Shown here piece after piece: positions 3,072 through 54,171 of a stretch of 64,000 bases of DNA (within the stretch, counting starts at the first letter, position 1; each line of letters begins with the position of its first letter). The notes beneath the pieces were generated by a model. That model was given only the letters and a program-made list of their open reading frames with translations, made no database searches and had not been told where the DNA came from. The position numbers and the translations under genes were made by a program. This DNA comes from Desulfosporosinus sp. (GTDB lineage: Bacteria > Bacillota > Desulfitobacteriia > Desulfitobacteriales > Desulfitobacteriaceae): assembly GCA_031292055.1 (NCBI GenBank), contig JARLHV010000050.1, forward strand, positions 37,369 to 101,368, given 5' to 3'.

Positions 3072-3169
3072 GGGGATGGATGGTGGCTGGTGCTGCTCCC
3101 GGACTTCAAATCCGCGTGTCGGGACGCAGAACGTTCCGAGGTGTGTTCGATTCGCACGCATCCCCGCCA
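3072..3169 (+). tRNA. selC: tRNA-Sec (anticodon TCA)
   Basis: 98 nt; GGACTTCAAATCC anticodon arm, long variable arm, GTGTG-TTCGATT-CGCAC T arm, acceptor GGGGATG/CATCCCC, ends GCCA. Confidence 0.92.
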
Positions 3170-19290: not shown

Positions 19291-19365
19291 GCGGACGTGG
19301 CTCAGCGGTAGAGCATTGGCTTCCCAAGCCGAGGATCGCGAGTTCGAATCTCGTCGTCCGCTCCA
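19291..19365 (+). tRNA. tRNA-Gly (CCC); integration target
   Basis: GCGGACGTGGCTCAGCGGTAGAGC; anticodon arm TTGGC-TTCCCAA-GCCGA; GTTCGAATC; ends CGTCCGCTCCA. Confidence 0.96.
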
Positions 19366-19528
19366 TACGTATTATCAACGGTCTCACGGTTTTCAGTGAA
19401 TGAAAGCGTGAGGCTTTTTTGTATATGCCGAGGCTCTGAACGTGGTATCTCGGACTAGGCGATTTTGACTATGCCGAGGCTCTGTTAACGCCCATTTCTT
19501 GCAATAAATATTGCAGGAGTGATGTTAA

Positions 19529-20473
19529 ATGGCAAGGCTCAGACGAATTGATGGAAAGAAATTTTTAACGAGAGAAGAGTGTTTAAAGGACTTTACGTTG
19601 TTTAAACTTGCTCAGGGTGTTTCCGAACGCACTATAAAGGATTACGAGTGGCACCTAGGTCATTTCTTTAAGGAGTTCCCTGAGGGGTGGGGGGATTATA
19701 CTACAGTCAAGAAGGCAGTAATTCATTATTTTGCGAATGGAAATCATTTAGCTCCAGCTACACACAATATGAGACGTAAGTATCTAAAATGTTTTTTTTC
19801 TTGGATGGTACAAGAAGGCACATTGACCTCAAATCCTGTCGATGGCATTCGACAGCGTAGAGAGGAGCCAAGGGTAAGAGAAATAGATGAGATCAAACTC
19901 AAAGAATTGATAGCCATTTTTGATCGTAAAACATATTCAGGGTTACGTGACTATGTGCTGCTGTGTCTGACGATTGATACGGGGATTAGGCCAAAAGAGG
20001 CATTAGCGTTGCTCTCAGAACATTTTAATCAGCGTGGGATGGAAGTACACATTCCTGCAGCAATTGCTAAAACAAGAATAAGCAGAACATTACCTTTGCT
20101 TCCCCTAACTGTAGACGGTATAAGAAAGCTTCTTTCCGTTCGGCCAGAAAGCTGGGGCAATGCTCCGCTCTTTGCTTCTTCTGAAGGAAAAGCTATGGAT
20201 ACTCATGCCTGGTCATTAAGGTTACGCCGATATGGAGAAAAACTAGGCTTTAAGATTTCAGCATATGATCTTCGTCACGCCTTTGCGTTAATGTTTTTAC
20301 GAAACGGTGGGCATGCTTTGGCACTACAAAGGACATTGGGGCATACTGATTTAACTGTTACAAAAAGGTACGTGGCACTAACACAGCAAGATTTGCGTGA
20401 ACAGCATACCGCTGCCTCACCGTTAAATTCTATTGTTCAGAAGCAAGACCGTATGAGAAAGTTGAAGAGTTAA
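19529..20473 (+). CDS. Tyrosine recombinase/integrase of element 1
   Basis: RDY...TGIRPKE (box I), AYDLRHAFA, LGHTDLTVTKRY (R-H-R-H-Y catalytic set). Confidence 0.93.
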   Translation: MARLRRIDGKKFLTREECLKDFTLFKLAQGVSERTIKDYEWHLGHFFKEFPEGWGDYTTVKKAVIHYFANGNHLAPATHNMRRKYLKCFFSWMVQEGTLTSNPVDGIRQRREEPRVREIDEIKLKELIAIFDRKTYSGLRDYVLLCLTIDTGIRPKEALALLSEHFNQRGMEVHIPAAIAKTRISRTLPLLPLTVDGIRKLLSVRPESWGNAPLFASSEGKAMDTHAWSLRLRRYGEKLGFKISAYDLRHAFALMFLRNGGHALALQRTLGHTDLTVTKRYVALTQQDLREQHTAASPLNSIVQKQDRMRKLKS

Positions 20474-31426: not shown

Positions 31427-32272
31427 TTACGAGAATGCCTTATCAATAGCTACCTCTAGATCTCTTTCTGTGGGCTTGGAATAACGTCTCGTTACATTGA
31501 TATCAGCATGTCCACACAGATCAGCTACAGTGGAGAGATCCACTCCTTTACTAACCAGTTCCCGTGCAAAGGTATGTCTTAGTGCATGAGGGTGAACGCC
31601 GTAATTGCTTAACATATGTTGGACTGCTCTCACACTGATTCTCTGACGGAAATTTGAGAAGAACAATGCTGGATCATTATCATCTCTGGTCTCAAGGTAT
31701 TTACTTAGGTATAAACGTGCCTCAGTCGAGAGTGGTACACGTCTTGAGACATTCCCTTTACCATTACGGACTGTGATGGAACCAGACCGTTCTCCCGTCA
31801 CTACGTCCGATCTGTCAAGTGCTACTAGCTCAGACACACGGATGCCAGTTCGAATAAGTAGGTTCACGATGGCAATGTCACGGGAATTATCGTTTCTCTC
31901 GACTTCACGAAGTAGGTTATTCCGTTCAGTACGTTCTAACGATTCAGGTGCAATATTTTTAGCTTGACGTGCTTGTGGTAATCGTATATTCTCGATTATA
32001 TTGGGGCTACCGATGAAACGAGCAAATTGGGAGATGGCTGCAAATCGGTTATTGATCGTGCTGGCACTGTTGCCCTTTGACTCTAAGGATTGAATGAATA
32101 GTTGAACATCTATTCGGGTTAGTTTAGCCAGATCTCCATCGTTATTTTGCAACCAGTCGTTGAACATTTCTAGTGAGTGCCTGTAGTTCTTGGCTGTCAA
32201 TTGACTCTTGCCTTTGTCCAAAATGTGAACCTGAAAATCATCAATGACTTTTACGACACTTTTTTCGTCCAT
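31427..32272 (-). CDS. Second tyrosine recombinase (XerC/D-like) of element 1
   Basis: RDIAIVNLLIRTGIRVSE, VRNGKGN, HPHALRHTFA, GHADINVTRRY. Confidence 0.92.
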   Translation of the reverse strand: MDEKSVVKVIDDFQVHILDKGKSQLTAKNYRHSLEMFNDWLQNNDGDLAKLTRIDVQLFIQSLESKGNSASTINNRFAAISQFARFIGSPNIIENIRLPQARQAKNIAPESLERTERNNLLREVERNDNSRDIAIVNLLIRTGIRVSELVALDRSDVVTGERSGSITVRNGKGNVSRRVPLSTEARLYLSKYLETRDDNDPALFFSNFRQRISVRAVQHMLSNYGVHPHALRHTFARELVSKGVDLSTVADLCGHADINVTRRYSKPTERDLEVAIDKAFS

Positions 32273-34733: not shown

Positions 34734-34783
34734 GGCTTCCCAAGCCGAGGATCGCGAGTTCGAATCTCGTCGTCCGCTCCATA
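34734..34783 (+). repeat. att copy 2 (tRNA-Gly 3' half, 50 bp)
   Basis: GGCTTCCCAAGCCGAGGATCGCGAGTTCGAATCTCGTCGTCCGCTCCATA, identical to 19318-19367. Confidence 0.95.
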
Positions 34784-34922: not shown

Positions 34923-36140
34923 TTATCTAACTGACTTTAGAATAATATTACCGAGCCGGGCAACTGCTCTTACTTTACCTTCCGGGGTACTATGCCCGTA
35001 AATATCTAATGTAGTACTCATCTTGGCATGGCCTAGAAGTTCGCTGACATTTGTTACGGCTTCACCATCATCCAGGAGAAGGGAAGCTACGGTATGGCGA
35101 AGATCGTGGACTCTAACGTGTTTAAGTCCAGCCTTTTTTATAATAGAGGCGTGTTTGCGGTTCAAATTCCGTGGTTCGATAGGGGTTCCAACTTCGCTGG
35201 TAAACAGCAGCCCACTGTCCTGATATCTTGGTCCAAAGAACATTTTTTCTTGTCGCTGCATAGCTTGAAATCGCTTTATTTCTTTGACTACTTCAGGTAA
35301 TAAAGGGATTATGCGTTTGCTCTTTTTAGTTTTTGGAGTGGAAAAAATGAGTTCGGATTTTTCTTCTCCTTCAAGCTTCTTCCGCTTTAGGGTTTGTATT
35401 ATATCAATTTTCGCTTTAGTGGGGTCAAATTGATCCCTTGGAATTCCCAGCAATTCTCCACGCCTTAGTCCGGTCGTCAGCTCTAACAAAAAGAGGGCAT
35501 ATAATCGATCCTCTCGCAGTGTCTCAAGATAAATTCGGACCTCTTCTTCGGTGAACGTCTCAAACTCTTTATACTGAATACTAGGAAGCTCAACTTCGTC
35601 CGCGGGGTTAAATGATAGCATGCGCAGTTTCAAAGCTTTTCTTAGGCAGCCGTTAATTAATTGGTGCATCATGTGAAGGCGACGGGTTGACAGGCCTCCT
35701 GCCTTGCCATCCATACGCCCGGATTTGGCCTTTAGATTATAGAATTCCTGAATGGTAATACCATGTAAGTCTTGAAGTGTTATTGCCCCAAGAAGGGGCA
35801 AAATATGCTTCGTAGCGAGGCTTACATAATCCGAATTAGTTTCTGGCTTAACATTTGGTTTTATGTAAATCTCAAGCCATTCTCCGAAGGTCAATTTTGA
35901 TGATTCTATATACATTCCCGAACGGAATTGTTGTTTAAACTCCGTTAGCTTAGCCTCAACCTCTTTTTGGCTCTTGCCAAAGAGAGATTTGCGTTTCGGT
36001 TTTCCCTCGCCATTATAGCCTATGATAATCTTCGCTTCCCAGCGACCGTCTGAGCGTTGATATAATGTGCCTTCATTATTAGCCCGTTTTCCAGCCTTCT
36101 TCTTTTTCTTCTTTGCTTTCTCTTCTACCATTCTGCTCAT
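34923..36140 (-). CDS. Phage/ICE-type tyrosine integrase of element 2
   Basis: N-terminal arm-binding region NEGTLYQRSDGRWEA; TTGLRRGELLG, VRVHDLRHTVAS, LGHAKMSTTLDIYGH. Confidence 0.95.
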   Translation of the reverse strand: MSRMVEEKAKKKKKKAGKRANNEGTLYQRSDGRWEAKIIIGYNGEGKPKRKSLFGKSQKEVEAKLTEFKQQFRSGMYIESSKLTFGEWLEIYIKPNVKPETNSDYVSLATKHILPLLGAITLQDLHGITIQEFYNLKAKSGRMDGKAGGLSTRRLHMMHQLINGCLRKALKLRMLSFNPADEVELPSIQYKEFETFTEEEVRIYLETLREDRLYALFLLELTTGLRRGELLGIPRDQFDPTKAKIDIIQTLKRKKLEGEEKSELIFSTPKTKKSKRIIPLLPEVVKEIKRFQAMQRQEKMFFGPRYQDSGLLFTSEVGTPIEPRNLNRKHASIIKKAGLKHVRVHDLRHTVASLLLDDGEAVTNVSELLGHAKMSTTLDIYGHSTPEGKVRAVARLGNIILKSVR

Positions 36141-36332
36141 TTCCCCCTATCCCGTTGCAGGCTGCAGTTTAAACCATCCCAAATTTGACAATCATCCTGA
36201 AGGCAATCCTGGTAAACGTGGATCATCGAGTTACCCTTGCCTGAGAAAGGAGCTAAGAATGGACATTTTCGGATAGGGTGTTTACCTTTGATGCTCAATG
36301 TTTTCATTCCTTTTATTGGGGCTCTGAAAAAG

Positions 36333-36450
36333 CAAAAAACCCCACACTTCTCTCGTAAAAAAGAAATGTGGGGCTCGAAGGCCCTCTAATATTGACGCTC
36401 TGGCTCTCTGACCTTTCGCGAAAGGTACTGGTGCTCTGGCGCTCTCACAT
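36333..36450 (-). ncRNA. Candidate small RNA, copy 1 (~115 nt)
   Basis: TTGCGA-17-TATAAT promoter (36483-36455) overlaps the end of the upstream gene; internal hairpins; CCCCACATTTC/GAAGTGTGGGG + T-tract terminator; homologous to 39001-39120. Confidence 0.65.
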
Positions 36451-36472
36451 ATACATTATATAGAGGTATGGA

Positions 36473-36799
36473 TTAGATCGCAACTTCATTTACTTTTGTT
36501 TTATCAAGATATTCCGCAGTTAATTTTTGAAGTTCAGTTTGTCTATCAAATACGAGTTCCTTTTGACCACCTTTAGTCATATAAACGCTCCGTAGGTGAT
36601 CATCATGATTGAAGTGGTAGTGAAATATTGCTTCATTTCCATCTTCGGTCATACACTGCATTTCTGCTATAAGCCCACTTTCCTCTTTGTAATAAGTGAC
36701 GTATTTATAATTTGGCAACTTGGCGTTTTCTAAAAGGTTATACGGCGTTACTACAGGACGGTACAAAAGTTCGTAAATATTTTTAATATAGTTTTCCAT
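36473..36799 (-). CDS. Hypothetical protein (108 aa), partner of the helicase gene
   Basis: RBS GGGAGG; starts 33 bp after the helicase stop; no recognised domain. Confidence 0.7.
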   Translation of the reverse strand: MENYIKNIYELLYRPVVTPYNLLENAKLPNYKYVTYYKEESGLIAEMQCMTEDGNEAIFHYHFNHDDHLRSVYMTKGGQKELVFDRQTELQKLTAEYLDKTKVNEVAI

Positions 36800-36832: not shown

Positions 36833-38637
36833 TTATGGTGTCCCAAGGTAGTCTTCTATAACCTTTTGTGCATATTCCAGAATTTCGGGGAGTTTTTCAT
36901 GTGCCATCTCGTAATCGTCTATACTCCAATTAGGCCTTTTAGCACCGACTTCTGAGTTAAGATAGTTTGCAAAATAGACGGCCAGCATACCACCGTTATC
37001 TTTAACCCTATTTTTTATCCATGAGAATCTCCCTTGAAATAATGGGCAATTTTTTAAGTTGTCACTATGTTGGTTGATAGAAAACCTGCTTATGAGTTCC
37101 GGGACAATAATTTCTTTTATTGTAACATCAATATCCTTTCGCTTACTAGCGAAATATTTGTCTGGCCGTTTGATATCTGAATCTTTATTTTCGGTTAAAT
37201 TAATTACTTTAAGAGCCTCTTCCCTGTTTATGTTGAGTATTTTTTGAATTTCGGCAATTTTCTCCTCGCGAATTTTGTCTTCTTCCTGTTTTCGCTTTAG
37301 AACAGCAGTAGTAAGATAAATATCACCGATTAGTTCTCCGGTCCCTCGCTCACTAGCATAACCAATATCTATGGGGTTTACTTTATCATTGTTCTTTGGA
37401 GAACCAGATAGTTGATCCTCAATTATATCTTGTTCTCTTAAGTGTTTTATTATCTCGCTTTCCTTCATTTCTTCCTTATAAACTTCCCACAAATCGTCAA
37501 GGCCTAGGTGCTTATGTGATACTATTTGACCGATATTATCTTCGGCTCTCAGTGCTAGCTCGTTAGGAATTGATCGCAGGATTCGTCCTATGAATTGAGC
37601 ATAAGGTAGTGGATTTCTAAAAGGTCTAAAATTGCTTGCTCTTTCAGCTCATCCGTGAGATTGCTATGAATAATGGTCGTAGGATATCCCTTGGAAACGT
37701 ACAAGTCCTTTATTTGTTCAGCATGATCAATGCTACAAGCTGTAGCAATAATCTTGTGGGGTACGTTATTGCCTCGCTCGAGCTTTTTCTCTAGTAACTC
37801 AATACTTTTATCAACTACCTTTTCAGAGCACTCTTTAGAATAGGCAACAGAACGGCTTACCCAGTCCTCGTCTTTCAGGTTCATTTTATAAATTTGATCA
37901 ACTGTGTAAGTCTTTGATGGGTCTTTGTCAATCGTGAGATATAGTTCACCGGGGATATAGGTTAGATTTTCGAGGCTTTTAACATATTCATTTGCCATAG
38001 CTTGGCTTAACTTATATATGTAAACCAGATCCCCAGCGATTTCTTTTTTGTCAGTTCGAATAGGGGTTCCAGTGACCTTAACAATTTTTGCACCTGAAAA
38101 GTGTTGGATTGCTTCCACCCATGTTCGGGCAGTTGAATGGTGTGCTTCGTCAATAATTATCATATCAAAAAAGTCAGAAGGGAGAAATTTAAGAGGCGAT
38201 GATCCTAAACGATTTTGTAACTTTTGGACATTCATCACTACAAGATTAGCTGCTTCTAGAACTTCAACCGTTGTCTTATTACTTTCAAATTCTACTAGTG
38301 ACGGTAGTGACTTTGGTCTCTCGAAAACTTTTCTCTTGAGCCAGAAGTTATCTGAGAGTTCGGGGTTTAATGCGTCGATAACGGTATCTTTAATTACAAT
38401 TTGTGGAGCGATGATTAACACTCTGCCTGAACATATGTTGTAAGGTAGTAAGCCCATGAGGCCAGTCTTTCCTACTCCTGTTGGTAAAATTATTATAGCA
38501 TGAGAGGTTTTTTTCTTTACAATGAAATGTTCATAAACGTGAAAATAGCCTTGGATTTGCGGTTCCCTTAAATCGTTATTGCCATATATATACGGTTCCT
38601 CATCCTTAAAGTAACTAGGATTGTAACCAAAACCCAT
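36833..38637 (-). pseudogene. DEAD/DEAH-box (SF2) helicase interrupted by a deletion/frameshift near 37630
   Basis: LPTGVGKT, IIIDEAHHS, VTGTPIR in the 5' ORF; the +1 frame resumes FRPFRNPLPYAQFIGRILR (motif VI) and continues into ORF 36833-37492; the motif V region is missing. Confidence 0.8.
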
Positions 38638-39000
38638 TTATAATTCCTCCGTATCTTAAATGTTTTTTAATATACCTAGCGGCCGTCTCATGAGTCAACA
38701 TAGGGTACTTCCTCAAGGAATTAGCATTAATTAATTGCTTATTCGATCTGCATAAATAATAAATACCATTTAATCCTATCTTTATATATTGTAGCATATT
38801 TATCTAATAATATTTTTTCTCTTTGAGAAAAATGTCTTGAGATCTTGCGGGCATTGCTCATTTTGTAATTTTTCTAATATAACGACTGGTCAGTTATTTT
38901 TTGAAGGCTTCTAAAATTGATGCGAATACCATCTAACATCAATAGATACCGGCCAAGTATTTTGATGCCCAATGTTTTCATCCATATATCAGGGGGCTCT

Positions 39001-39120
39001 AAAAAAACAAAAGCCCCGCATTTCTTTCCAACAAGAAAATGTGGGGCTAGTAGGCCATACAATATTGGTGCACCAGTTCTGATCTTTCTAAAAATGAGCT
39101 AGTGTATTGGTACTTTTTAT
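39001..39120 (-). ncRNA. Candidate small RNA, copy 2 (~115 nt)
   Basis: TATACT -10 (39129-39124) just after the SAS stop; same block order as copy 1; GCCCCACATTT/AAATGCGGGGC + T-tract terminator. Confidence 0.6.
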
Positions 39121-39160
39121 ATGAGTATAAGCTAGAATGTATTAGCGTTAAAGCCATCAC

Positions 39161-40126
39161 CTAAAAAGAGTATCCTAAATCTACAAATAAAGGGTGCAAT
39201 AAAGCGGGGGTGAGTGGCCAGTATTGTTTAACTTGGCTTCTTTTTTTAGCAATAAGATAATATAACACTAAAACAATAGGCTGGCGGTATAATAGGTTCC
39301 GATCATAATTTTTTTTGATCAAGTCGAAAACATATGGATGCTCTCTAAAATACGTGCTAATTTCATGCATTTGGACTGAGACCATGAGTTCTTTATATGC
39401 ATCAAGAATAAAAATGTTTAATCCCTTTTCAAATTCCGGCTCTTTGAAACTCGAATAGATTGTTGTTAATTCAGGAAGAAGTAAATGTTCATTACTATTT
39501 GCTTTTAGCATATCATTTACCTCCTCGAAAATCTTGTCCGTCGTTTCAATTAAGGCCATACTTTGAGCAATCAATCGATGCATTTTAGGTAATGTACGTG
39601 TTTTAGGCTTATAAACCGTATCGTGTGTTAGCTCGCTGTATGCATGCTGAAGCAGGGTTCTTATTTGCACTTCGCAGGGTGTACCAATTGGAATCTCTAT
39701 GTCTTCAAATTTTATCACTTTTCGATTTCTAACGATATAGTGTACAGATTGATAAGTAAATATATTAGGATTATCTAGGCGCTCTTTTTCAAAATCTCGA
39801 TCCTTCGAAGACTCCCATTCCTGTCGTTCTACAATGCATGAGAGTGTCTTTATATCATCAACCAATAGCACGACAAATCTTATACCAACTTTGTCTGTAA
39901 TGTCATCGAAAGGGTTTGAATATTCTTTTCCACAATAGAAAGCCTTCTGAATCAGAGAGTTAAGTTCTTTCACCCGGGATGTAGGTGTTATCCTAAGGAA
40001 AGTGGCGACATCTTCAACATCTTTAGTCAGTTCGGAAATTATTATTTCTTTTATGTATTCGCCCCAAGCAGTATAAATGTGTTTCTTACTATTAAACTTT
40101 TCAGTGAATTCTTGCTCTGTCATCAT
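39161..40126 (-). CDS. Small alarmone synthetase (RelA/SpoT domain protein)
   Basis: SRVKELNSLIQKA, DITDKVGIRFV, YQSVHYIV, CEVQIRTLLQHAYSELTHDTVYK; no hydrolase domain; ATG 4 nt after the upstream stop. Confidence 0.88.
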   Translation of the reverse strand: MMTEQEFTEKFNSKKHIYTAWGEYIKEIIISELTKDVEDVATFLRITPTSRVKELNSLIQKAFYCGKEYSNPFDDITDKVGIRFVVLLVDDIKTLSCIVERQEWESSKDRDFEKERLDNPNIFTYQSVHYIVRNRKVIKFEDIEIPIGTPCEVQIRTLLQHAYSELTHDTVYKPKTRTLPKMHRLIAQSMALIETTDKIFEEVNDMLKANSNEHLLLPELTTIYSSFKEPEFEKGLNIFILDAYKELMVSVQMHEISTYFREHPYVFDLIKKNYDRNLLYRQPIVLVLYYLIAKKRSQVKQYWPLTPALLHPLFVDLGYSF

Positions 40127-40130
40127 CTTA

Positions 40131-41198
40131 TCATTGCCCTTTAATAAAACCTTCAATACGTAGCGTTGTTTTTGAACCCTCATGTCCGATGATTTCGACC
40201 AATTCATCAAAGTTATCGGAGGGAGCACTTAAGCTTACGTTTGAAGAAAATGTAATCTGTCTTTTCTTTAGTTTGTTTTGTATCAGGCTAATATCTTTAG
40301 CTACAGCGTGGCTCGGAAATTCATTGGCCTCCATATAGCTGCAATAATCATCTTTTTGCTCTGGAGTAAGGTATTCATCGCCAAATGCAGAAACGTCCAC
40401 TACGTTACTTTGGGAGACTTTTAGATAAGAATGTAGTGCCGACTGAAGTTCTACTTTTTTCTCATCTTGAACATTTAAGTTATCAATATAATCTTTGGTA
40501 TGAGTATGAAAATCCATTGTCCATCTTTTATCACTTGGGGAAAATTTACATCCAAAAAAAGATTCATAGAAATAGATTGCAGCTCCCGCAGTAGTAGTCA
40601 CATTCATGTTTTGGTCATATATATAGGCTTTAAACTGTTCAGCTGTTCTGGGAGTGTTTGGTTCAGAAGCACCTTCTTTTTCGATAAACATACCAATTTT
40701 GTATAGCTTTTGTTGAGGAGTAAGGCACAAATCTGATAATAATTCTAATAGTAATTGTTCGGAATTTTGTCGCAAACTAAAGCCCTCATGGATCTCAGCT
40801 TTAATAAACCCGATATATCTATCTGAATTTGATCCAACGGTTCCATCGAAAATAACTACTACCCCTCCTGGGATATTCCTTGCGGTCTGGGCCTCAGCAA
40901 GTTTATAAGCTATGTTTTGTGATTTCACGATGAACTCCTCATCATTGGTATCTAACATCTTTGCAGCAACACCAAATGTATCGCCATCTTGTGAATTTAC
41001 AATTTCCATTTCAACACTATGTGAATTATGACCAAGAACATCAATAATCCTATTCTGAAGAATAGTTAAAGCGTTCGCATCTAAGTTGGCCAATGAATTG
41101 TTGTATCTAGGTGTCTGAATTTCCCGAGTTTCAGTTCTCTCGAAAACTTGGTGAACAATAACTCTGTTAATTAATAGATTTGCAAATTGGTTACTCAA
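40131..41198 (-). CDS. Nucleoid-associated protein (NA37/NdpA-like)
   Basis: INRVIVHQV, IAYKLAEAQ...IPGGVVVI, FIKAEIHEGF, KLYKIGMF, YFYESFFGC pattern; TTG start after AAAGGAG. Confidence 0.7.
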   Translation of the reverse strand: MSNQFANLLINRVIVHQVFERTETREIQTPRYNNSLANLDANALTILQNRIIDVLGHNSHSVEMEIVNSQDGDTFGVAAKMLDTNDEEFIVKSQNIAYKLAEAQTARNIPGGVVVIFDGTVGSNSDRYIGFIKAEIHEGFSLRQNSEQLLLELLSDLCLTPQQKLYKIGMFIEKEGASEPNTPRTAEQFKAYIYDQNMNVTTTAGAAIYFYESFFGCKFSPSDKRWTMDFHTHTKDYIDNLNVQDEKKVELQSALHSYLKVSQSNVVDVSAFGDEYLTPEQKDDYCSYMEANEFPSHAVAKDISLIQNKLKKRQITFSSNVSLSAPSDNFDELVEIIGHEGSKTTLRIEGFIKGQ

Positions 41199-41611
41199 AT
41201 TTAATTCTCCTTTCATTATAACAAATGGCCTAAAAGCGAATACCTGTCAAATTAACCAAAGCAATCTATTTCTATACTATCTAGATCGCTATTTAATGGC
41301 AGTGTTTCATAAGAAGTAATTGTGAGCTTACCATCATCACTAGAATTTTTCACTTCTATCTTGAAAATTGCTTCTATCGGTTTTTCGTAGCTATATGTTC
41401 CGATTTCACAATTTGATGTCTATCTATAAAATCCGCTAATTCATAATAAGTATTATTTAGTTTGAACTCCGCATAATTTATACCTCTATCAAAGGACCTA
41501 AATAAACAATTGGTATCTAATATTATATAATTCAATTCATTTTTACTCCTTTACTAACTAACTTCAATAGCGGGACGCACATTAAAGTCTCTTATGTTTC
41601 CTTTCATAACT

Positions 41612-42382
41612 TCATAATGATCCTCTTACGCCACACCACGCTGGCGTCTTGTCGTACATCGTCGCTATTTTTAATGGCATACACGATAACAAATATTTAC
41701 CCCACATGCGCTTAGTTTCAATCCTGAAGGGATATCCCATGACCTCAATATTTCCATCAACCTTACGAGGATTAGAGAAATAACTAACTAAGAATTCCCT
41801 AAAAGTCTCGCGGTCAAGCCTTATACTAGACGCATGATATTCCCAATCAATTCGCCCTAACGAAGGATCAACCATAACCCAAAGTCCAGGTATAATATCA
41901 GTCTCTGCTAATCTTCGCGCAGCAGCCTCCAGACTCACATCACAATACTTTGCGAGTTTATTCACCAAGAATACCAAACTATCCGAATACTTCCTCACAA
42001 AGTCTGATACAATCCACGTCGGCATTAATAAAGCCGCAGCAAAACTATCTGCCTCCTGCTTTTCGCGCTCCGACTCACCCACGCCAGGTTGCTGAATACC
42101 ACCTCTATGATCAAGAAGCACATGGCCGAATTCGTGAGCCACACCAAACCGTTGCACAGATACTGGTAAAAGAGAGTTGACATAAATCAGCGCTATTTCT
42201 TGAGCCACCATAAGTCTAGCTATTAAACCATCTGGCAAAGGGCGTCTATGGAGATGAATTTCAACATCAAGCTTCTTTTCTATGGCGTAGGCTATATGGT
42301 CTAGGGATAATGGAAATTTCTCTCTGACAAGATAACGTTCCACGAATGCTTGAGCGACTAAGTCCTCTCTTTCTCCCATCAC
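41612..42382 (-). CDS. ImmA/IrrE-family metalloprotease
   Basis: QRFGVAHEFGH (HExxH), EKQEADSFAAALLMP, VSLEAAARR. Confidence 0.9.
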   Translation of the reverse strand: MMGEREDLVAQAFVERYLVREKFPLSLDHIAYAIEKKLDVEIHLHRRPLPDGLIARLMVAQEIALIYVNSLLPVSVQRFGVAHEFGHVLLDHRGGIQQPGVGESEREKQEADSFAAALLMPTWIVSDFVRKYSDSLVFLVNKLAKYCDVSLEAAARRLAETDIIPGLWVMVDPSLGRIDWEYHASSIRLDRETFREFLVSYFSNPRKVDGNIEVMGYPFRIETKRMWGKYLLSCMPLKIATMYDKTPAWCGVRGSL

Positions 42383-42502
42383 CGCACCCCTCCAATTGTC
42401 GAAACATTACAATAATTGATGATATATGTCGAATGCATATTAAAACAAGACAACTACCCTAACCAGGGTAGTTGTTTATCTATAATATGTATATTTGGAG
42501 GA

Positions 42503-42913
42503 TCATTTTTTCTCTTGATTACCTTTCTGGCGTTCCCAACGTTCACGTTCAAGCTTGTATAGATGTTCAATCTGATCTTTAATGAGATTTTGGCTCTCTT
42601 CGGATAGATCTCTGGCTTTATAGAAAATGAGAAGTTCATCTTCGGGGGTGGGGCGAAATTCGTTTGTATTATCAGATGTAAGGGACTTGGGGTTAGTTGT
42701 TCGGCCAAGCAGATAATCAGTAGTAGTATTATAAAAATCTGCAATTTTAGAGAGCTTTTCAGCATCAGGAGTTCTTTTTCCAGACTCATATTGAGATATT
42801 GCTGCTCTGTCAAGATTAAGAAATCCAGCTAAATCTTCTTGATTTTTTCCAACACTTAATCGCAAATTCTTCATTCGTCTGGCTAAAATATTATCCAAAT
42901 TAATCACTCCCAC
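42503..42913 (-). CDS. XRE-family repressor (ImmR/CI-like)
   Basis: QEDLAGFLNLDRAAISQYESGKRTPD...TTDYLLGRT. Confidence 0.92.
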   Translation of the reverse strand: MGVINLDNILARRMKNLRLSVGKNQEDLAGFLNLDRAAISQYESGKRTPDAEKLSKIADFYNTTTDYLLGRTTNPKSLTSDNTNEFRPTPEDELLIFYKARDLSEESQNLIKDQIEHLYKLERERWERQKGNQEKK

Positions 42914-46031: not shown

Positions 46032-46634
46032 CTAGGATTTGGCGTGCAAGGTCGTTAAGATCTCGTTGTGGCGGTTAATCATCTTGATAATGTGATTCCG
46101 GTCAACCAACTCTACTCGGTTTGCTCGGGCAGCTTCCTGGGCACCAGGCGTATAGTAGTTATTCGCGAAAACCATCATCAGAGTGAGTCCATAAATTGCT
46201 TTTGACGCAACGATGTTTTGAACAGCTTTATTGTTTACCTTGCTAGCATATCGTTTGCACTGGATACCCAGTCGATGGCCGTCGCGATAGTGAATGATAA
46301 GATCACAGCCTTGATCGCCCGTGGGGGGTGTGAACTCAGTTTTGCTGATCTTATCTTTCTCTAAGACCCTGAACAGCTTTTCAACGAATAACTCAAACTC
46401 TTGGCCGGTCATTCTGTCAACCTTAGTGATGCTGTAGGTGCCATATACCTTATCAAGTTTCTTCAAATGCTTTTCATGAATTTTTCGGGATGTCTTTTTG
46501 GACTTTTTACTTTTTTTGATAAGGTTCCGGAAGAACTTTTTAGTAAAACCTGATATTAAACCCAAGGCAATAGCTCCGAAAATTAAATAGTAAAACTCTT
46601 TTGGGGTTCTGGTAACCAAGTCGGTAAAGCTCAT
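46032..46634 (-). CDS. Mrr-like restriction endonuclease with N-terminal membrane anchor
   Basis: GQEFELFV, GDQGCDLII, GIQCKRY (D...QxK), YTPGAQEAA; one N-terminal hydrophobic helix. Confidence 0.85.
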   Translation of the reverse strand: MSFTDLVTRTPKEFYYLIFGAIALGLISGFTKKFFRNLIKKSKKSKKTSRKIHEKHLKKLDKVYGTYSITKVDRMTGQEFELFVEKLFRVLEKDKISKTEFTPPTGDQGCDLIIHYRDGHRLGIQCKRYASKVNNKAVQNIVASKAIYGLTLMMVFANNYYTPGAQEAARANRVELVDRNHIIKMINRHNEILTTLHAKS

Positions 46635-47383: not shown

Positions 47384-47430
47384 TTCCCAAGCCGAGGATC
47401 GCGAGTTCGAATTTCGTCGTCCGCTCCATA
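47384..47430 (+). repeat. att copy 3 (tRNA-Gly 3' half, 47 bp, one mismatch)
   Basis: Matches 19321-19367 except C>T at 47413; starts exactly at the anticodon loop TTCCCAA. Confidence 0.93.
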
Positions 47431-53420: not shown

Positions 53421-53723
53421 ATGAGCGAGTTTCTCTCAAGGCTTCCGGAGGAATTTAAAAAAGATATATACTCTGCAATTGAGATACTTAAGAATGCCGG
53501 ATGCAAAGAAATATTCATTTTTGGCTCATTGGTTACGGGTACTTACAGGGAAGATTCTGATATAGATATTGCCGTAAAGGGATGTTTGCCTGAGAATTAT
53601 TTTGCTTTGTTAGGGAAATTATTGACTACATTAAGCCGTCCTGTCGATTTAATCAATTTAGATAGGGAAGATCCATTTTCACAATACCTTGAAAAGGAAG
53701 GTGATCTTTATCGCGTCTCCTGA
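53421..53723 (+). CDS. Minimal nucleotidyltransferase (MNT) antitoxin
   Basis: IFIFGSLVTG...EDSDIDIAV...PVDLINL. Confidence 0.88.
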   Translation: MSEFLSRLPEEFKKDIYSAIEILKNAGCKEIFIFGSLVTGTYREDSDIDIAVKGCLPENYFALLGKLLTTLSRPVDLINLDREDPFSQYLEKEGDLYRVS

Positions 53724-54171
53724 AAAGGCAATATCTCAAATAATTTTCGAGATACAGCAAATAGATGAATTATTTACTTCCTTCAGCGAATTATTGGAAA
53801 AGAGTAAAGTAGAGGAACCGACTTTAATCGAGCTCACCGCAATAGGCTCAATACTGCATTCCTTTTATAATGGAATAGAGAACATATTTAAAACAATCGG
53901 GAAAAATATTGATGGTGAAATTCCTAGTGGTAACCACTGGCATAGCCAACTCATAAAACAAATGACTGAATCCACATACAAACGTGATTCTATTATTTCA
54001 GATGGTTTGAAAGAAAAATTGGCAGACTACCTGGCATTCAGGCATTTTTATCGCAATTCATATTCCTTTTGGTTAAAATGGAATGAGTTAAAGAAACTGA
54101 CAGACCCTGTGATTATTGTGTGGTCAGAATTTAAGATTGAATTGAAGACATTTATGGATAACCAAATTTAG
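53689..54171 (+). CDS. HEPN (DUF86/HepT-like) ribonuclease
   Basis: LHSFYNGIENIF, HWHSQLI, YLAFRHFYRNSY; overlaps the MNT gene; exact start uncertain. Confidence 0.85.
   Translation: MKRKVIFIASPEKAISQIIFEIQQIDELFTSFSELLEKSKVEEPTLIELTAIGSILHSFYNGIENIFKTIGKNIDGEIPSGNHWHSQLIKQMTESTYKRDSIISDGLKEKLADYLAFRHFYRNSYSFWLKWNELKKLTDPVIIVWSEFKIELKTFMDNQI

What the first reader, a model, noticed from the sequence alone, without database searches (positions are those of the whole stretch)
39161..41198. Nucleoid-associated protein + hydrolase-less small alarmone synthetase operon on a mobile element
Seen: an NA37/NdpA-like gene coupled (4-nt gap) to a RelA/SpoT synthetase-only gene with intact DxxGxR, YxSxH and ExQxRT motifs plus a ~120-aa helical C-terminal extension, followed by sRNA copy 2; no hydrolase gene nearby. 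Established: mobile toxSAS enzymes make (pp)pApp or pyrophosphorylate tRNA and act in phage defence. Inference: NA37 senses phage DNA or proteins and the SAS is the effector. I do not recognise this pairing as a named system.
Basis: partly seen in the sequence, partly recalled or inferred. Interest (0 to 1): 0.75.

Follow-up and report, generated by a model that had tools for sequence, protein, structure and literature searches.

The report
NAP-activated alarmone synthetase phage-defence pair
The two coupled genes are real and form a widespread module, but an April 2026 preprint already named and tested this pairing as the type I PANGU anti-phage system, so this is an untested Gram-positive member carried on a small integrated island.

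Summary
On the minus strand, a 355-aa YejK/NdpA (NA37) nucleoid-associated protein gene (40131-41198) lies 4 nt upstream of a 321-aa RelA/SpoT synthetase-only gene (39161-40126). The synthetase has intact DxxGxR, YxSxH and ExQxRT motifs and a ~115-aa helical C-terminal domain. No SpoT-type hydrolase lies nearby.

The pairing is not chance. In 78 of 78 related loci from many phyla that had upstream DNA, the NAP gene sits directly upstream of the synthetase, usually with a 4-nt overlap.

The pairing is now named. bioRxiv 10.64898/2026.04.06.716658 calls it type I PANGU (Pag1A sensor, Pag1B/GRel effector). [quoted passage not shown] It then binds the effector's C-terminal domain and switches on pppGpp synthesis, which aborts infection. 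It is not a toxin-antitoxin pair.

The cue, the expected product and the proposed toxicity test were not correct.

The locus sits on a 12.6-kb island at tRNA-Gly in a Desulfosporosinus genome. The "sRNA" is a duplicated terminator-bearing intergenic element that brackets a variable cargo slot; an RNA function is unproven.

Verdict: new member of a known kind, modest interest.

The parts
40131..41198 (-). pag1A-like gene: YejK/NdpA (NA37) nucleoid-associated protein, 355 aa from TTG 41198. An in-frame ATG at 41216 would give 361 aa.
   Evidence: Pfam NA37 E=5.9e-11. The AF2 model (pLDDT 86) has E. coli YejK 9BE2 as its only significant PDB match, E=9.7e-9 over 359 columns. RBS AAAGGAG at 41213-41207. 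Homologues are 352-358 aa.
39161..40126 (-). pag1B-like gene: synthetase-only RelA/SpoT homologue (SAS), 321 aa.
   Evidence: Pfam RelA_SpoT E=1.6e-16. 1874 homologues, and the 120 listed are nearly all full-length at about 320-340 aa. 39% identical (E=1e-78) over its whole length to the NAP-linked 'GTP pyrophosphokinase' of E. coli SCU-102.
39512..40126 (-). SAS catalytic (SYNTH) domain plus linker helix, residues 1-205. Includes D78/G81/R83, G-loop Y125, H129 and E152/Q154/R156.
   Evidence: Foldseek best matches are RelQ/SAS1 5DEC and RelP 6EX0 (E about 1e-10, TMt 0.75-0.80). CapRel 7ZTB is weaker at 1.5e-6. Residue conservation.
39164..39499 (-). SAS C-terminal helical domain, residues ~210-321. 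It corresponds in position to the NAP-binding 'DMK' domain of Pag1B.
   Evidence: AF2 predicts a helical bundle with no PDB match. HMMER against 1.84 billion representatives finds the domain only at the C-terminal end of the hits: same-family SAS proteins of roughly 310-340 aa, plus many shorter proteins (63-280 aa) that I take to be truncated gene calls but did not check. Mean identity is 28%, against 50% for the catalytic domain.
39001..39048 (-). Intrinsic-terminator hairpin plus U-run downstream of the SAS gene. It is the core of 'sRNA copy 2'.
   Evidence: Sequence AGCCCCACATTTTCTTGTTGGAAAGAAATGCGGGGCT followed by TTTGTTTTTTT.
38960..39160 (-). Repeat element, SAS-proximal copy ('sRNA copy 2'): a -10-like TATACT, small hairpins, the terminator, and ATGAAAACATTG.
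   Evidence: The same element type follows the SAS in L084.
36290..36490 (-). Repeat element, integrase-proximal copy ('sRNA copy 1').
   Evidence: Conserved next to the integrase in L082 and L084.
36833..38637 (-). Disrupted ResIII/DEAD-type helicase gene (pseudogene). It is the variable cargo between the two repeat copies.
   Evidence: Pfam ResIII E=1.2e-21 on the 349-aa ORF. Helicase motif VI (QFIGRILR) continues in another frame into the '219-aa ORF'. The segment is absent from L082.
34923..36140 (-). Tyrosine integrase of the island.
   Evidence: Pfam Phage_integrase plus Phage_int_SAM_3.
34737..34783 (+). att core, an exact copy of the 3' 47 nt of tRNA-Gly(CCC). Left end of the 12.6-kb island.
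47384..47430 (+). att core with 1 mismatch. Right end of the island.
41612..42913 (-). Lysogeny-type regulators upstream of the module: ImmA/IrrE M78 peptidase (41612-42382) and Xre repressor (42503-42913).
   Evidence: Pfam Peptidase_M78 E=5.4e-16 and HTH_3 E=9.1e-15.
46032..46634 (-). Mrr-type restriction endonuclease on the same island.
   Evidence: Pfam Mrr_cat E=4.2e-23.

Best explanation
The locus is a two-gene anti-phage module of the type recently named type I PANGU. It consists of a YejK-like nucleoid-associated protein (Pag1A-like, the sensor) translationally coupled to a small alarmone synthetase with a C-terminal NAP-binding domain (Pag1B-like, the effector).

The proposed mechanism is taken from tested gammaproteobacterial homologues and is inferred, not shown, for this locus. 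In uninfected cells the NAP dimer is held on chromosomal DNA and the SAS sits as an inactive oligomer. When a phage degrades the host chromosome, the freed NAP binds the SAS C-terminal domain and forms an active complex. That complex converts ATP and GTP (also GDP or GMP) into AMP and (pp)pGpp, which shuts down transcription and translation and aborts the infection.

Here the module is cargo in the integrase-to-repressor region of a 12.6-kb island integrated at tRNA-Gly in a Desulfosporosinus genome.
For: Shown here:
- Both domains and all catalytic motifs are intact.
- The NAP model matches only YejK. The SAS catalytic domain matches the pppGpp synthetases RelQ and RelP best.
- In 78 of 78 related loci with upstream DNA, the NAP gene is immediately upstream of the SAS, and 65 of them have a 4-nt overlap. 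These loci span Bacillota, Pseudomonadota, Verrucomicrobiota, Acidobacteriota, Leptospira, Campylobacterota and Nitrospinota.
- NAP and SAS pairwise identities correlate at r=0.94 over 75 pairs.
- The C-terminal domain occurs only at the C-terminal end of this SAS family's members.
- Identity is 39% (SAS) and 33% (NAP) over full length to the E. coli int-SLATT-NAP-SAS island. SLATT is upstream in 11 of 80 loci, which matches the preprint's description of Cluster 1.
- In L003 the NAP gene is split by an IS transposase while the SAS is intact. This fits an activator role, not an antitoxin role.
- The context is defence or mobile: an Mrr endonuclease and a dead helicase on the island, BrxL-like genes next to the 68%-identical relative, and an AAA_15/AAA_21 ATPase pair in L084.
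- The island is 92-98% identical to L082 while the host flank is only 83.6% identical, which indicates recent horizontal transfer.

From the literature: defence, pppGpp synthesis, the A2B complex, the T4 denA escape mutants and NAP relocalisation are shown for the F. futtsuensis, P. aeruginosa and E. coli systems in bioRxiv 10.64898/2026.04.06.716658. A YejK-domain protein was independently validated in E. coli defence (PMC13092281).
Against: - No experiment exists for this locus or for any Bacillota member. All tested systems are gammaproteobacterial and only 33-43% identical.
- The mechanism rests on a single preprint.
- The reference sequences and PDB 9UFP were not available here, so the interface residues (R258, R306, H314) and the DNA-contact residues (K200, R203, K204) could not be mapped.
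- The C-terminal domain here is only weakly acidic (net -2, pI 6.1; family median pI 5.3), so 'DNA mimicry' is not evident from sequence.
- RSH subfamily placement (GRel versus the Firmicutes 'cloRel' of PMC3153485) could not be tested.
- The operon promoter was not identified.
Confidence: 0.8

Rival explanations
1. It is a classical type II toxSAS toxin-antitoxin pair. The SAS would be a constitutively toxic enzyme making (pp)pApp or modifying tRNA, and the upstream NAP would be its antitoxin.
For: The SAS is a mobile, hydrolase-less enzyme tightly coupled to an upstream gene, as in the FaRel, PhRel and CapRel systems (general knowledge). It gives a weak PADLOC hit to PDC-S33, catalytic domain only, E=2e-10.
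Against: In tested homologues the SAS alone is non-toxic and needs the NAP for activity, and no tRNA labelling was seen. In L003 the NAP gene is destroyed by an IS insertion while the SAS ORF is intact, which is hard to reconcile with an essential antitoxin. The catalytic domain is structurally closer to RelQ and RelP than to CapRel.
Confidence: 0.05
2. It is a non-defensive regulatory module. A stress-responsive SAS would make an alarmone that acts on, or is controlled by, a nucleoid protein to remodel the chromosome of the host or of the island.
For: YejK is a housekeeping NAP in E. coli. The SAS fold is closest to the housekeeping enzymes RelQ and RelP.
Against: The module is sporadic and island-borne: 4 of 5426 E. 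coli genomes, next to an integrase at tRNA-Thr. Here it lies between att repeats and is linked to restriction and BREX-like genes. Homologues give 3-4 logs of protection against phage.
Confidence: 0.07
3. It has the same architecture but a different output or trigger in this Bacillota clade. For example, it might make (pp)pApp, or be activated by a phage protein that displaces the NAP instead of by chromosome degradation.
For: Identity to the tested systems is only 33-43%. The C-terminal domain is the fastest-evolving part (28% mean identity) and is barely acidic here. In the preprint, T1 and T5 degrade host DNA yet are not restricted, so the trigger is not fully understood.
Against: The catalytic residues and the overall architecture are conserved across the whole family. 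Nothing in the sequence points to a different substrate.
Confidence: 0.08

Closest known systems
Type I PANGU (Pag1A NAP + Pag1B/GRel toxSAS), bioRxiv 10.64898/2026.04.06.716658 (April 2026)
   Same: A YejK/NdpA-like NAP of ~355-365 aa lies immediately upstream of, and is translationally coupled to, a ~320-330-aa SAS. The SAS has an N-terminal SYNTH domain, a linker helix and a C-terminal helical domain. A G-loop Tyr is present (Y125 here, Y129 in the F. futtsuensis protein). Protein sizes match (40.7 and 38.1 kDa here, against 40.6 and 37.5 kDa for the P. aeruginosa pair). The context is an island or defence island, and the family spans many phyla including Bacillota.
   Different: This member comes from a Desulfosporosinus (Bacillota) island and is untested. 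It is 33-43% identical to gammaproteobacterial members. It has a 4-nt gap where most members have a 4-nt overlap, no SLATT gene, and a C-terminal domain that is only weakly acidic. RSH subfamily label not verified.
CapRel(SJ46), a fused toxSAS toxin-antitoxin (PDB 7ZTB)
   Same: A prophage- or island-borne SAS with a C-terminal regulatory domain, used for abortive infection. The catalytic fold is shared (Foldseek E=1.5e-6).
   Different: CapRel is a single polypeptide. Its C-terminal domain auto-inhibits the enzyme and senses phage capsid protein, and it pyrophosphorylates tRNA. Here regulation is in trans by a NAP, the C-terminal domains are unrelated, and there is no sequence-level hit.
Housekeeping small alarmone synthetases RelQ/SAS1 and RelP/SAS2 (PDB 5DEC, 6EX0)
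   Same: These are the best structural matches for the catalytic domain (E about 1e-10, TMt up to 0.80). They share the motifs and make (p)ppGpp.
   Different: About 20% identity. RelQ and RelP are ~200 aa, lack the C-terminal domain, are chromosomal core genes and have no NAP partner. The NCBIfam YjbM score of 34.9 is far below the 320 cutoff.
E. coli YejK (PDB 9BE2), a standalone nucleoid-associated protein
   Same: It is the only significant fold match for the NAP (E=9.7e-9, whole length), and both hit Pfam NA37.
   Different: 11% identity, and the domain arrangement differs (TM about 0.4). YejK is a standalone core gene, whereas this NAP is always paired with the SAS.

Membership tests
Type I PANGU (Pag1A/Pag1B) | The NAP is a YejK/NdpA (IPR007358 / PF04245) protein with HMM E<1e-10 and length >=300 aa (criteria in the preprint's Methods). 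| tested here: met
   Pfam NA37 E=5.9e-11, 355 aa. Fold match to YejK 9BE2 at E=9.7e-9.
Type I PANGU (Pag1A/Pag1B) | Bicistronic operon with the NAP and effector genes adjacent and less than 40 bp apart. | tested here: met
   4-nt gap on the same strand. The same order is seen in 78/78 related loci.
Type I PANGU (Pag1A/Pag1B) | The effector is a SAS with an N-terminal toxSYNTH domain carrying the catalytic G-loop Tyr, a helical linker and a C-terminal domain. | tested here: met
   RelA_SpoT domain at residues 50-175; Y125 at least 95% conserved; helix 180-209; helical bundle 213-316.
Type I PANGU (Pag1A/Pag1B) | Homology of both proteins to the canonical or tested systems (F. futtsuensis, P. 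aeruginosa, E. coli). | tested here: inconclusive
   The reference sequences and PDB 9UFP are not available here. By proxy, the SAS is 39% and the NAP 33% identical over full length to an E. coli SLATT-NAP-SAS island, and 43% and 38% to Pseudomonas loci.
Type I PANGU (Pag1A/Pag1B) | The C-terminal 'DMK' domain is acidic and DNA-mimicking and binds the NAP. | tested here: inconclusive
   The domain is homologous across the family but is only net -2, pI 6.1 here, against a family median pI of 5.3. Binding is not testable with these tools.
Type I PANGU (Pag1A/Pag1B) | NAP-dependent pppGpp synthesis, abortive-infection defence, and NAP release on chromosome degradation. | not testable with these tools
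   Experimental features reported only for gammaproteobacterial systems.
GRel subfamily of SAS (RSH classification, PMC3153485 and later) | Best hit to the GRel subfamily HMM or placement in the GRel clade. | not tested
   No RSH subfamily HMMs are available. gRel was defined as gammaproteobacterial, and a Firmicutes 'cloRel' group also exists. The family is continuous, with E about 1e-67 to 1e-107 from this protein to the 80 related loci, mostly proteobacterial NAP-linked SASs.
Classical toxSAS toxin-antitoxin (FaRel, PhRel, CapRel types) | The SAS is toxic on its own and is neutralised by the neighbouring or fused antitoxin. | tested here: not met
   Indirect only. In L003 an IS-disrupted NAP coexists with an intact SAS. 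Tested homologues are non-toxic alone. Not tested experimentally for this locus.
Housekeeping RelP/RelQ | Scores above the NCBIfam equivalog cutoff, is ~200 aa, and is a core chromosomal gene. | tested here: not met
   NCBIfam GTPPhKinYjbM score 34.9 against a cutoff of 320. The protein is 321 aa with an extra domain and is island-borne.

The most novel reading that the evidence does not exclude
Two readings remain open. First, the ~120-nt promoter-like and terminator element found in two diverged copies (int-proximal and SAS-proximal) may be a functional unit and not just a terminator. It could be a small RNA, or a recombination anchor that defines an exchangeable defence-cargo slot. That slot holds a dead helicase here, an AAA ATPase pair in L084, and nothing in L082. 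Second, the Bacillota NAP-SAS clade may respond to a different trigger or make a different nucleotide from the tested gammaproteobacterial PANGU systems.
Probability: 0.12. Interest if true: 0.55.

Novelty: new member of a known kind. Interest (0 to 1): 0.3.

Why it matters
NAP-SAS modules illustrate a defence logic based on guarding genome integrity: a chromosome-bound protein acts as the alarm when phage nucleases destroy host DNA. This locus adds an untested Gram-positive (Desulfosporosinus) example on a small, recently transferred tRNA-Gly island, sitting in a slot that exchanges other defence cargo.

It could be used to test whether the mechanism found in E. coli and T4 holds in Bacillota. 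It does not open a new question. The near-perfect gene linkage, and the natural IS knock-out of the NAP with the SAS left intact, are independent genomic support for the preprint's activator (non-TA) model.

Tried and rejected
- Sequence search of the PDB with both proteins and Foldseek of both models, to find the Pag1A-Pag1B cryo-EM entry 9UFP. It is not in the local copies, so interface and DNA-contact residues could not be mapped.
- The preprint has no supplementary text held, so no reference sequences or accessions were available.
- PADLOC gave only a weak catalytic-domain hit to PDC-S33 and nothing for the NAP. NCBIfam scores were far below cutoff.
- Megablast of the island against phage genomes found no match. 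PHROGs on downstream ORFs found only unknown-function families. The island is therefore not a recognisable intact prophage.
- The sRNA idea: no meaningful Rfam match at E<=1 (the single sub-threshold hit, a miRNA family far below its gathering score, lies inside the helicase pseudogene). No copy was found in viral contigs, and only two further contigs were found in metagenomes. RNAalifold supports only the terminator stem, with a covariation term of +0.48. The single-sequence z-score is -2.65 for copy 1 but only -1.09 for copy 2.
- A TATAAT at 41220-41215, preceded by TGT, looked like an extended -10 promoter. It lies too close to the RBS and the TTG start to serve the operon, so I do not claim it.
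- I asked whether the C-terminal domain occurs in other architectures. It does not.
- RNA-seq evidence: only DNA metagenome runs hold the sequence.
Full report
**1. What is there**

Both genes lie on the minus strand.

An AAAGGAG ribosome-binding site sits 8 nt upstream, and homologues are 352-358 aa.
- The NAP stop TGA (40133-40131) is followed by 4 nt and then ATGATG. This starts a 321-aa protein ending at 39161.
- That protein has one Pfam domain, RelA_SpoT (residues 50-175, E=1.6e-16).
- The DxxGxR (D78, G81, R83), YxSxH (Y125, S127, H129) and ExQxRT (E152, Q154, R156, T157) motifs are present. Seven of these residues are at least 95% conserved in 75 family members; S127 and R156 are conserved in at least 90% of a 68-sequence alignment.
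- An AlphaFold2 model (pLDDT 93.5) shows the alpha/beta catalytic domain, a long helix (180-209) and an all-helical C-terminal bundle (213-316).
- None of the ORFs I scanned around the locus has a SpoT-type hydrolase domain.

**2. Is the pairing more than chance?**

The SAS has 1874 detectable homologues, and those listed are nearly all full-length at about 320-340 aa. A scan of one genome per species returned 80 loci from several phyla: Bacillota, Alpha-, Beta- and Gammaproteobacteria, Desulfobacterota, Verrucomicrobiota, Acidobacteriota, Leptospira, Sulfurovum and Nitrospinaceae.

- tblastn with the window's NAP finds a homologue immediately upstream of the SAS in all 78 loci that include upstream DNA.
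- In 65 of them the two genes overlap by 4 nt (ATGA), the signature of translational coupling.
- Pairwise identities of the NAPs and SASs correlate at r=0.94 over 75 pairs.
- The C-terminal domain, searched alone against 1.84 billion representative proteins, is found only at the C-terminal end of the hits. These are same-family SAS proteins of roughly 310-340 aa plus many shorter proteins that I take to be truncated gene calls.

This is a fixed two-gene module.

**3. What it is**

The NAP model's only significant PDB match is E. coli YejK (9BE2, E=9.7e-9, whole length). The SAS catalytic domain matches the pppGpp synthetases RelQ/SAS1 and RelP best (E about 1e-10). The tRNA-modifying CapRel is a weaker match (1.5e-6). 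The C-terminal domain has no PDB match.

A full-text search found that exactly this pairing was described in April 2026 (bioRxiv 10.64898/2026.04.06.716658). The authors name it type I PANGU, with Pag1A as a YejK-like NAP and Pag1B as a 'GRel' toxSAS with a C-terminal 'DMK' domain.

For systems from F. futtsuensis, P. aeruginosa and E. coli, the authors report:

- 3-4 logs of protection against T4 or Bas34, with both genes required.
- No toxicity of either gene or of the pair without phage.
- NAP-dependent conversion of ATP+GTP to AMP+pppGpp, with no tRNA pyrophosphorylation.
- An inactive Pag1B tetramer that is converted into a Pag1A2-Pag1B heterotrimer through the C-terminal domain (cryo-EM).
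- T4 escape by denA (EndoII) mutations.
- Release of the NAP from the nucleoid during infection.
- Toxicity when the NAP cannot bind DNA.

Their Cluster 1 spans more than five phyla including Bacillota, and some operons add a SLATT gene.

My data reproduce those family traits independently:

- A SLATT gene lies upstream of the NAP in 11 of 80 loci.
- E. coli SCU-102 carries int-SLATT-NAP-'GTP pyrophosphokinase' at tRNA-Thr. Only 4 of 5426 complete E. coli genomes have the pair.
- The window's proteins are 39% (SAS, E=1e-78) and 33% (NAP, E=2e-64) identical over full length to that E. coli pair.
- Protein masses are 40.7 and 38.1 kDa, against the 40.6 and 37.5 kDa reported for the P. aeruginosa pair.
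- A YejK-domain protein was also validated independently as defensive in E. coli (PMC13092281).

**4. Independent evidence on mechanism**

In L003 (a Thermodesulfobacteriota isolate), a 1.6-kb insertion encoding a 443-aa transposase splits the NAP gene, while the SAS ORF is intact. An intact toxin without its antitoxin should not persist. This natural knock-out therefore favours the activator model over a toxin-antitoxin reading. It is a single case and only supportive.

The C-terminal domain evolves much faster than the catalytic domain (28% against 50% mean identity). Even so, it tracks the NAP (r=0.90), as expected for a co-evolving interface.

**5. Caveats on membership**

- I could not obtain the reference sequences or PDB 9UFP, so the published interface and DNA-contact residues could not be mapped.
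- The RSH subfamily label (GRel versus the Firmicutes 'cloRel' of PMC3153485) could not be tested.
- The C-terminal domain here is barely acidic (net -2, pI 6.1).
- All experiments are on gammaproteobacterial systems and come from one preprint.

I therefore file the locus as a member by architecture and homology. I treat the mechanism as inferred.

**6. Context**

The host is a Desulfosporosinus sp.: its purB falls in the same 90% cluster as Desulfosporosinus spp.. The sequence occurs in bioreactor and peat metagenomes.

The 47-nt 3' end of tRNA-Gly(CCC) occurs three times, at 19321-19367 (within the tRNA), 34737-34783 and 47384-47430. Two islands therefore sit in tandem:

- Island A (19.4-34.7 kb) has its own integrase, an ANT-domain protein, CWB2 cell-wall-binding proteins and a second recombinase.
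- Island B (34.8-47.4 kb, 12.6 kb) carries, in order: the integrase, the repeat element, a dead helicase, the repeat element, SAS-NAP, ImmA, Xre, a Cro-like HTH, an HTH_17 protein, a DUF2786/DUF7168 protein and an Mrr endonuclease.

No packaging or structural genes were seen, and there is no match in phage genomes. Island B is therefore a prophage remnant or a satellite-like island.

A peat-metagenome relative (L082) has the same island directly at tRNA-Gly. The NAP-SAS block is 98.3% identical, the island flanks are 92-96% identical, and the host genes are only 83.6% identical. This shows recent horizontal transfer of the island.

**7. The 'sRNA'**

A ~120-nt element occurs downstream of the SAS (38960-39160) and next to the integrase (36290-36490). 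It consists of a -10-like hexamer, small hairpins, a strong terminator hairpin with a U-run, and a conserved ATGAAAACATTG.

Across three contigs it comes in an int-proximal type and a SAS-proximal type. In the window and in L084 the two copies bracket different cargo: a frameshifted ResIII helicase here, and an AAA_15/AAA_21 ATPase plus a 346-aa partner in L084. L082 has one copy and no cargo.

There is no meaningful Rfam match and no covariation beyond the terminator stem. The simplest reading is a terminator-bearing intergenic module that marks a cargo-exchange slot and terminates the NAP-SAS transcript. An RNA function is neither supported nor excluded.

**8. Verdict**

The sensor and effector assignment is right. 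However, the system is already named and mechanistically described. The sensed cue in tested homologues is loss of host DNA, not phage DNA or protein. The product is pppGpp. The proposed 'toxicity' refutation test would mislead.

Novelty: new member of a known kind. Interest: about 0.3.

Noticed in passing
window 36833-38637 (-): The ResIII/DEAD-type helicase gene is a pseudogene. The 349-aa ORF stops after motif IV. Motif VI (QFIGRILR) continues in another frame and runs into the '219-aa ORF', which implies an internal deletion plus a frameshift. The whole segment is absent from the 98%-identical relative L082.
   Followed up: partly
window 36290-36490 and 38960-39160; L084 400-620 and 3330-3540; L082 11480-11700: Two diverged types of a ~120-nt element with a promoter-like hexamer and a terminator bracket a variable cargo slot between the integrase and the SAS. 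The slot holds a dead helicase in the window, an AAA_15/AAA_21 ATPase plus a 346-aa protein in L084, and nothing in L082. It may be a recombination anchor for defence-cargo exchange.
   Followed up: partly
window 19321-19367, 34737-34783, 47384-47430: Three direct copies of the 3' 47 nt of tRNA-Gly(CCC) show two islands integrated in tandem at the same tRNA. Island A (19.4-34.7 kb) has its own integrase (19529-20473), an ANT-domain protein, two CWB2 cell-wall-binding proteins and a second XerC-like recombinase (31427-32272).
   Followed up: partly
L003 3245-6004: In Thermodesulfobacteriota bacterium B35 the NAP gene is split by a 1.6-kb IS encoding a 443-aa transposase, while the downstream SAS is intact. 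This is a natural knock-out that fits the NAP being an activator, not an antitoxin.
   Followed up: yes
L083 (E. coli SCU-102, NZ_CP051753.1 869675-873935): tRNA-Thr, integrase, SLATT, NAP and 'GTP pyrophosphokinase' lie in order, followed by DprA-like and RecQ-like genes. The pair is present in only 4 of 5426 complete E. coli genomes.
   Followed up: partly
L084 3532-4599: In this metagenome relative (92% identical module) the SAS reading frame is split into two ORFs (185 and 137 aa) while the NAP is intact. This is either decay of the effector or an assembly error.
   Followed up: no
window 46032-46634 (-); L082 7949-8899; L084 5658-6617: Mrr-type restriction endonuclease genes occur on the island. 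A second, weakly Mrr-like ~316-aa gene sits directly upstream of the NAP in L082 and L084. In the window that gene is replaced by 436 nt of unrelated sequence (41232-41667).
   Followed up: no
window 53689-54171 (+) and 3072-3169 (+): A HepT-like (toxin-type) protein lies outside the islands, and a tRNA-Sec gene lies near the start of the window.
   Followed up: no
window 41215-41223 (-): TGTTATAAT (an extended -10-like sequence) overlaps the upstream in-frame ATG. It lies only ~2 nt from the RBS of the TTG start, which is too close to serve as the operon promoter. The real promoter of the NAP-SAS transcript was not found and may be read-through from immR-immA.
   Followed up: partly
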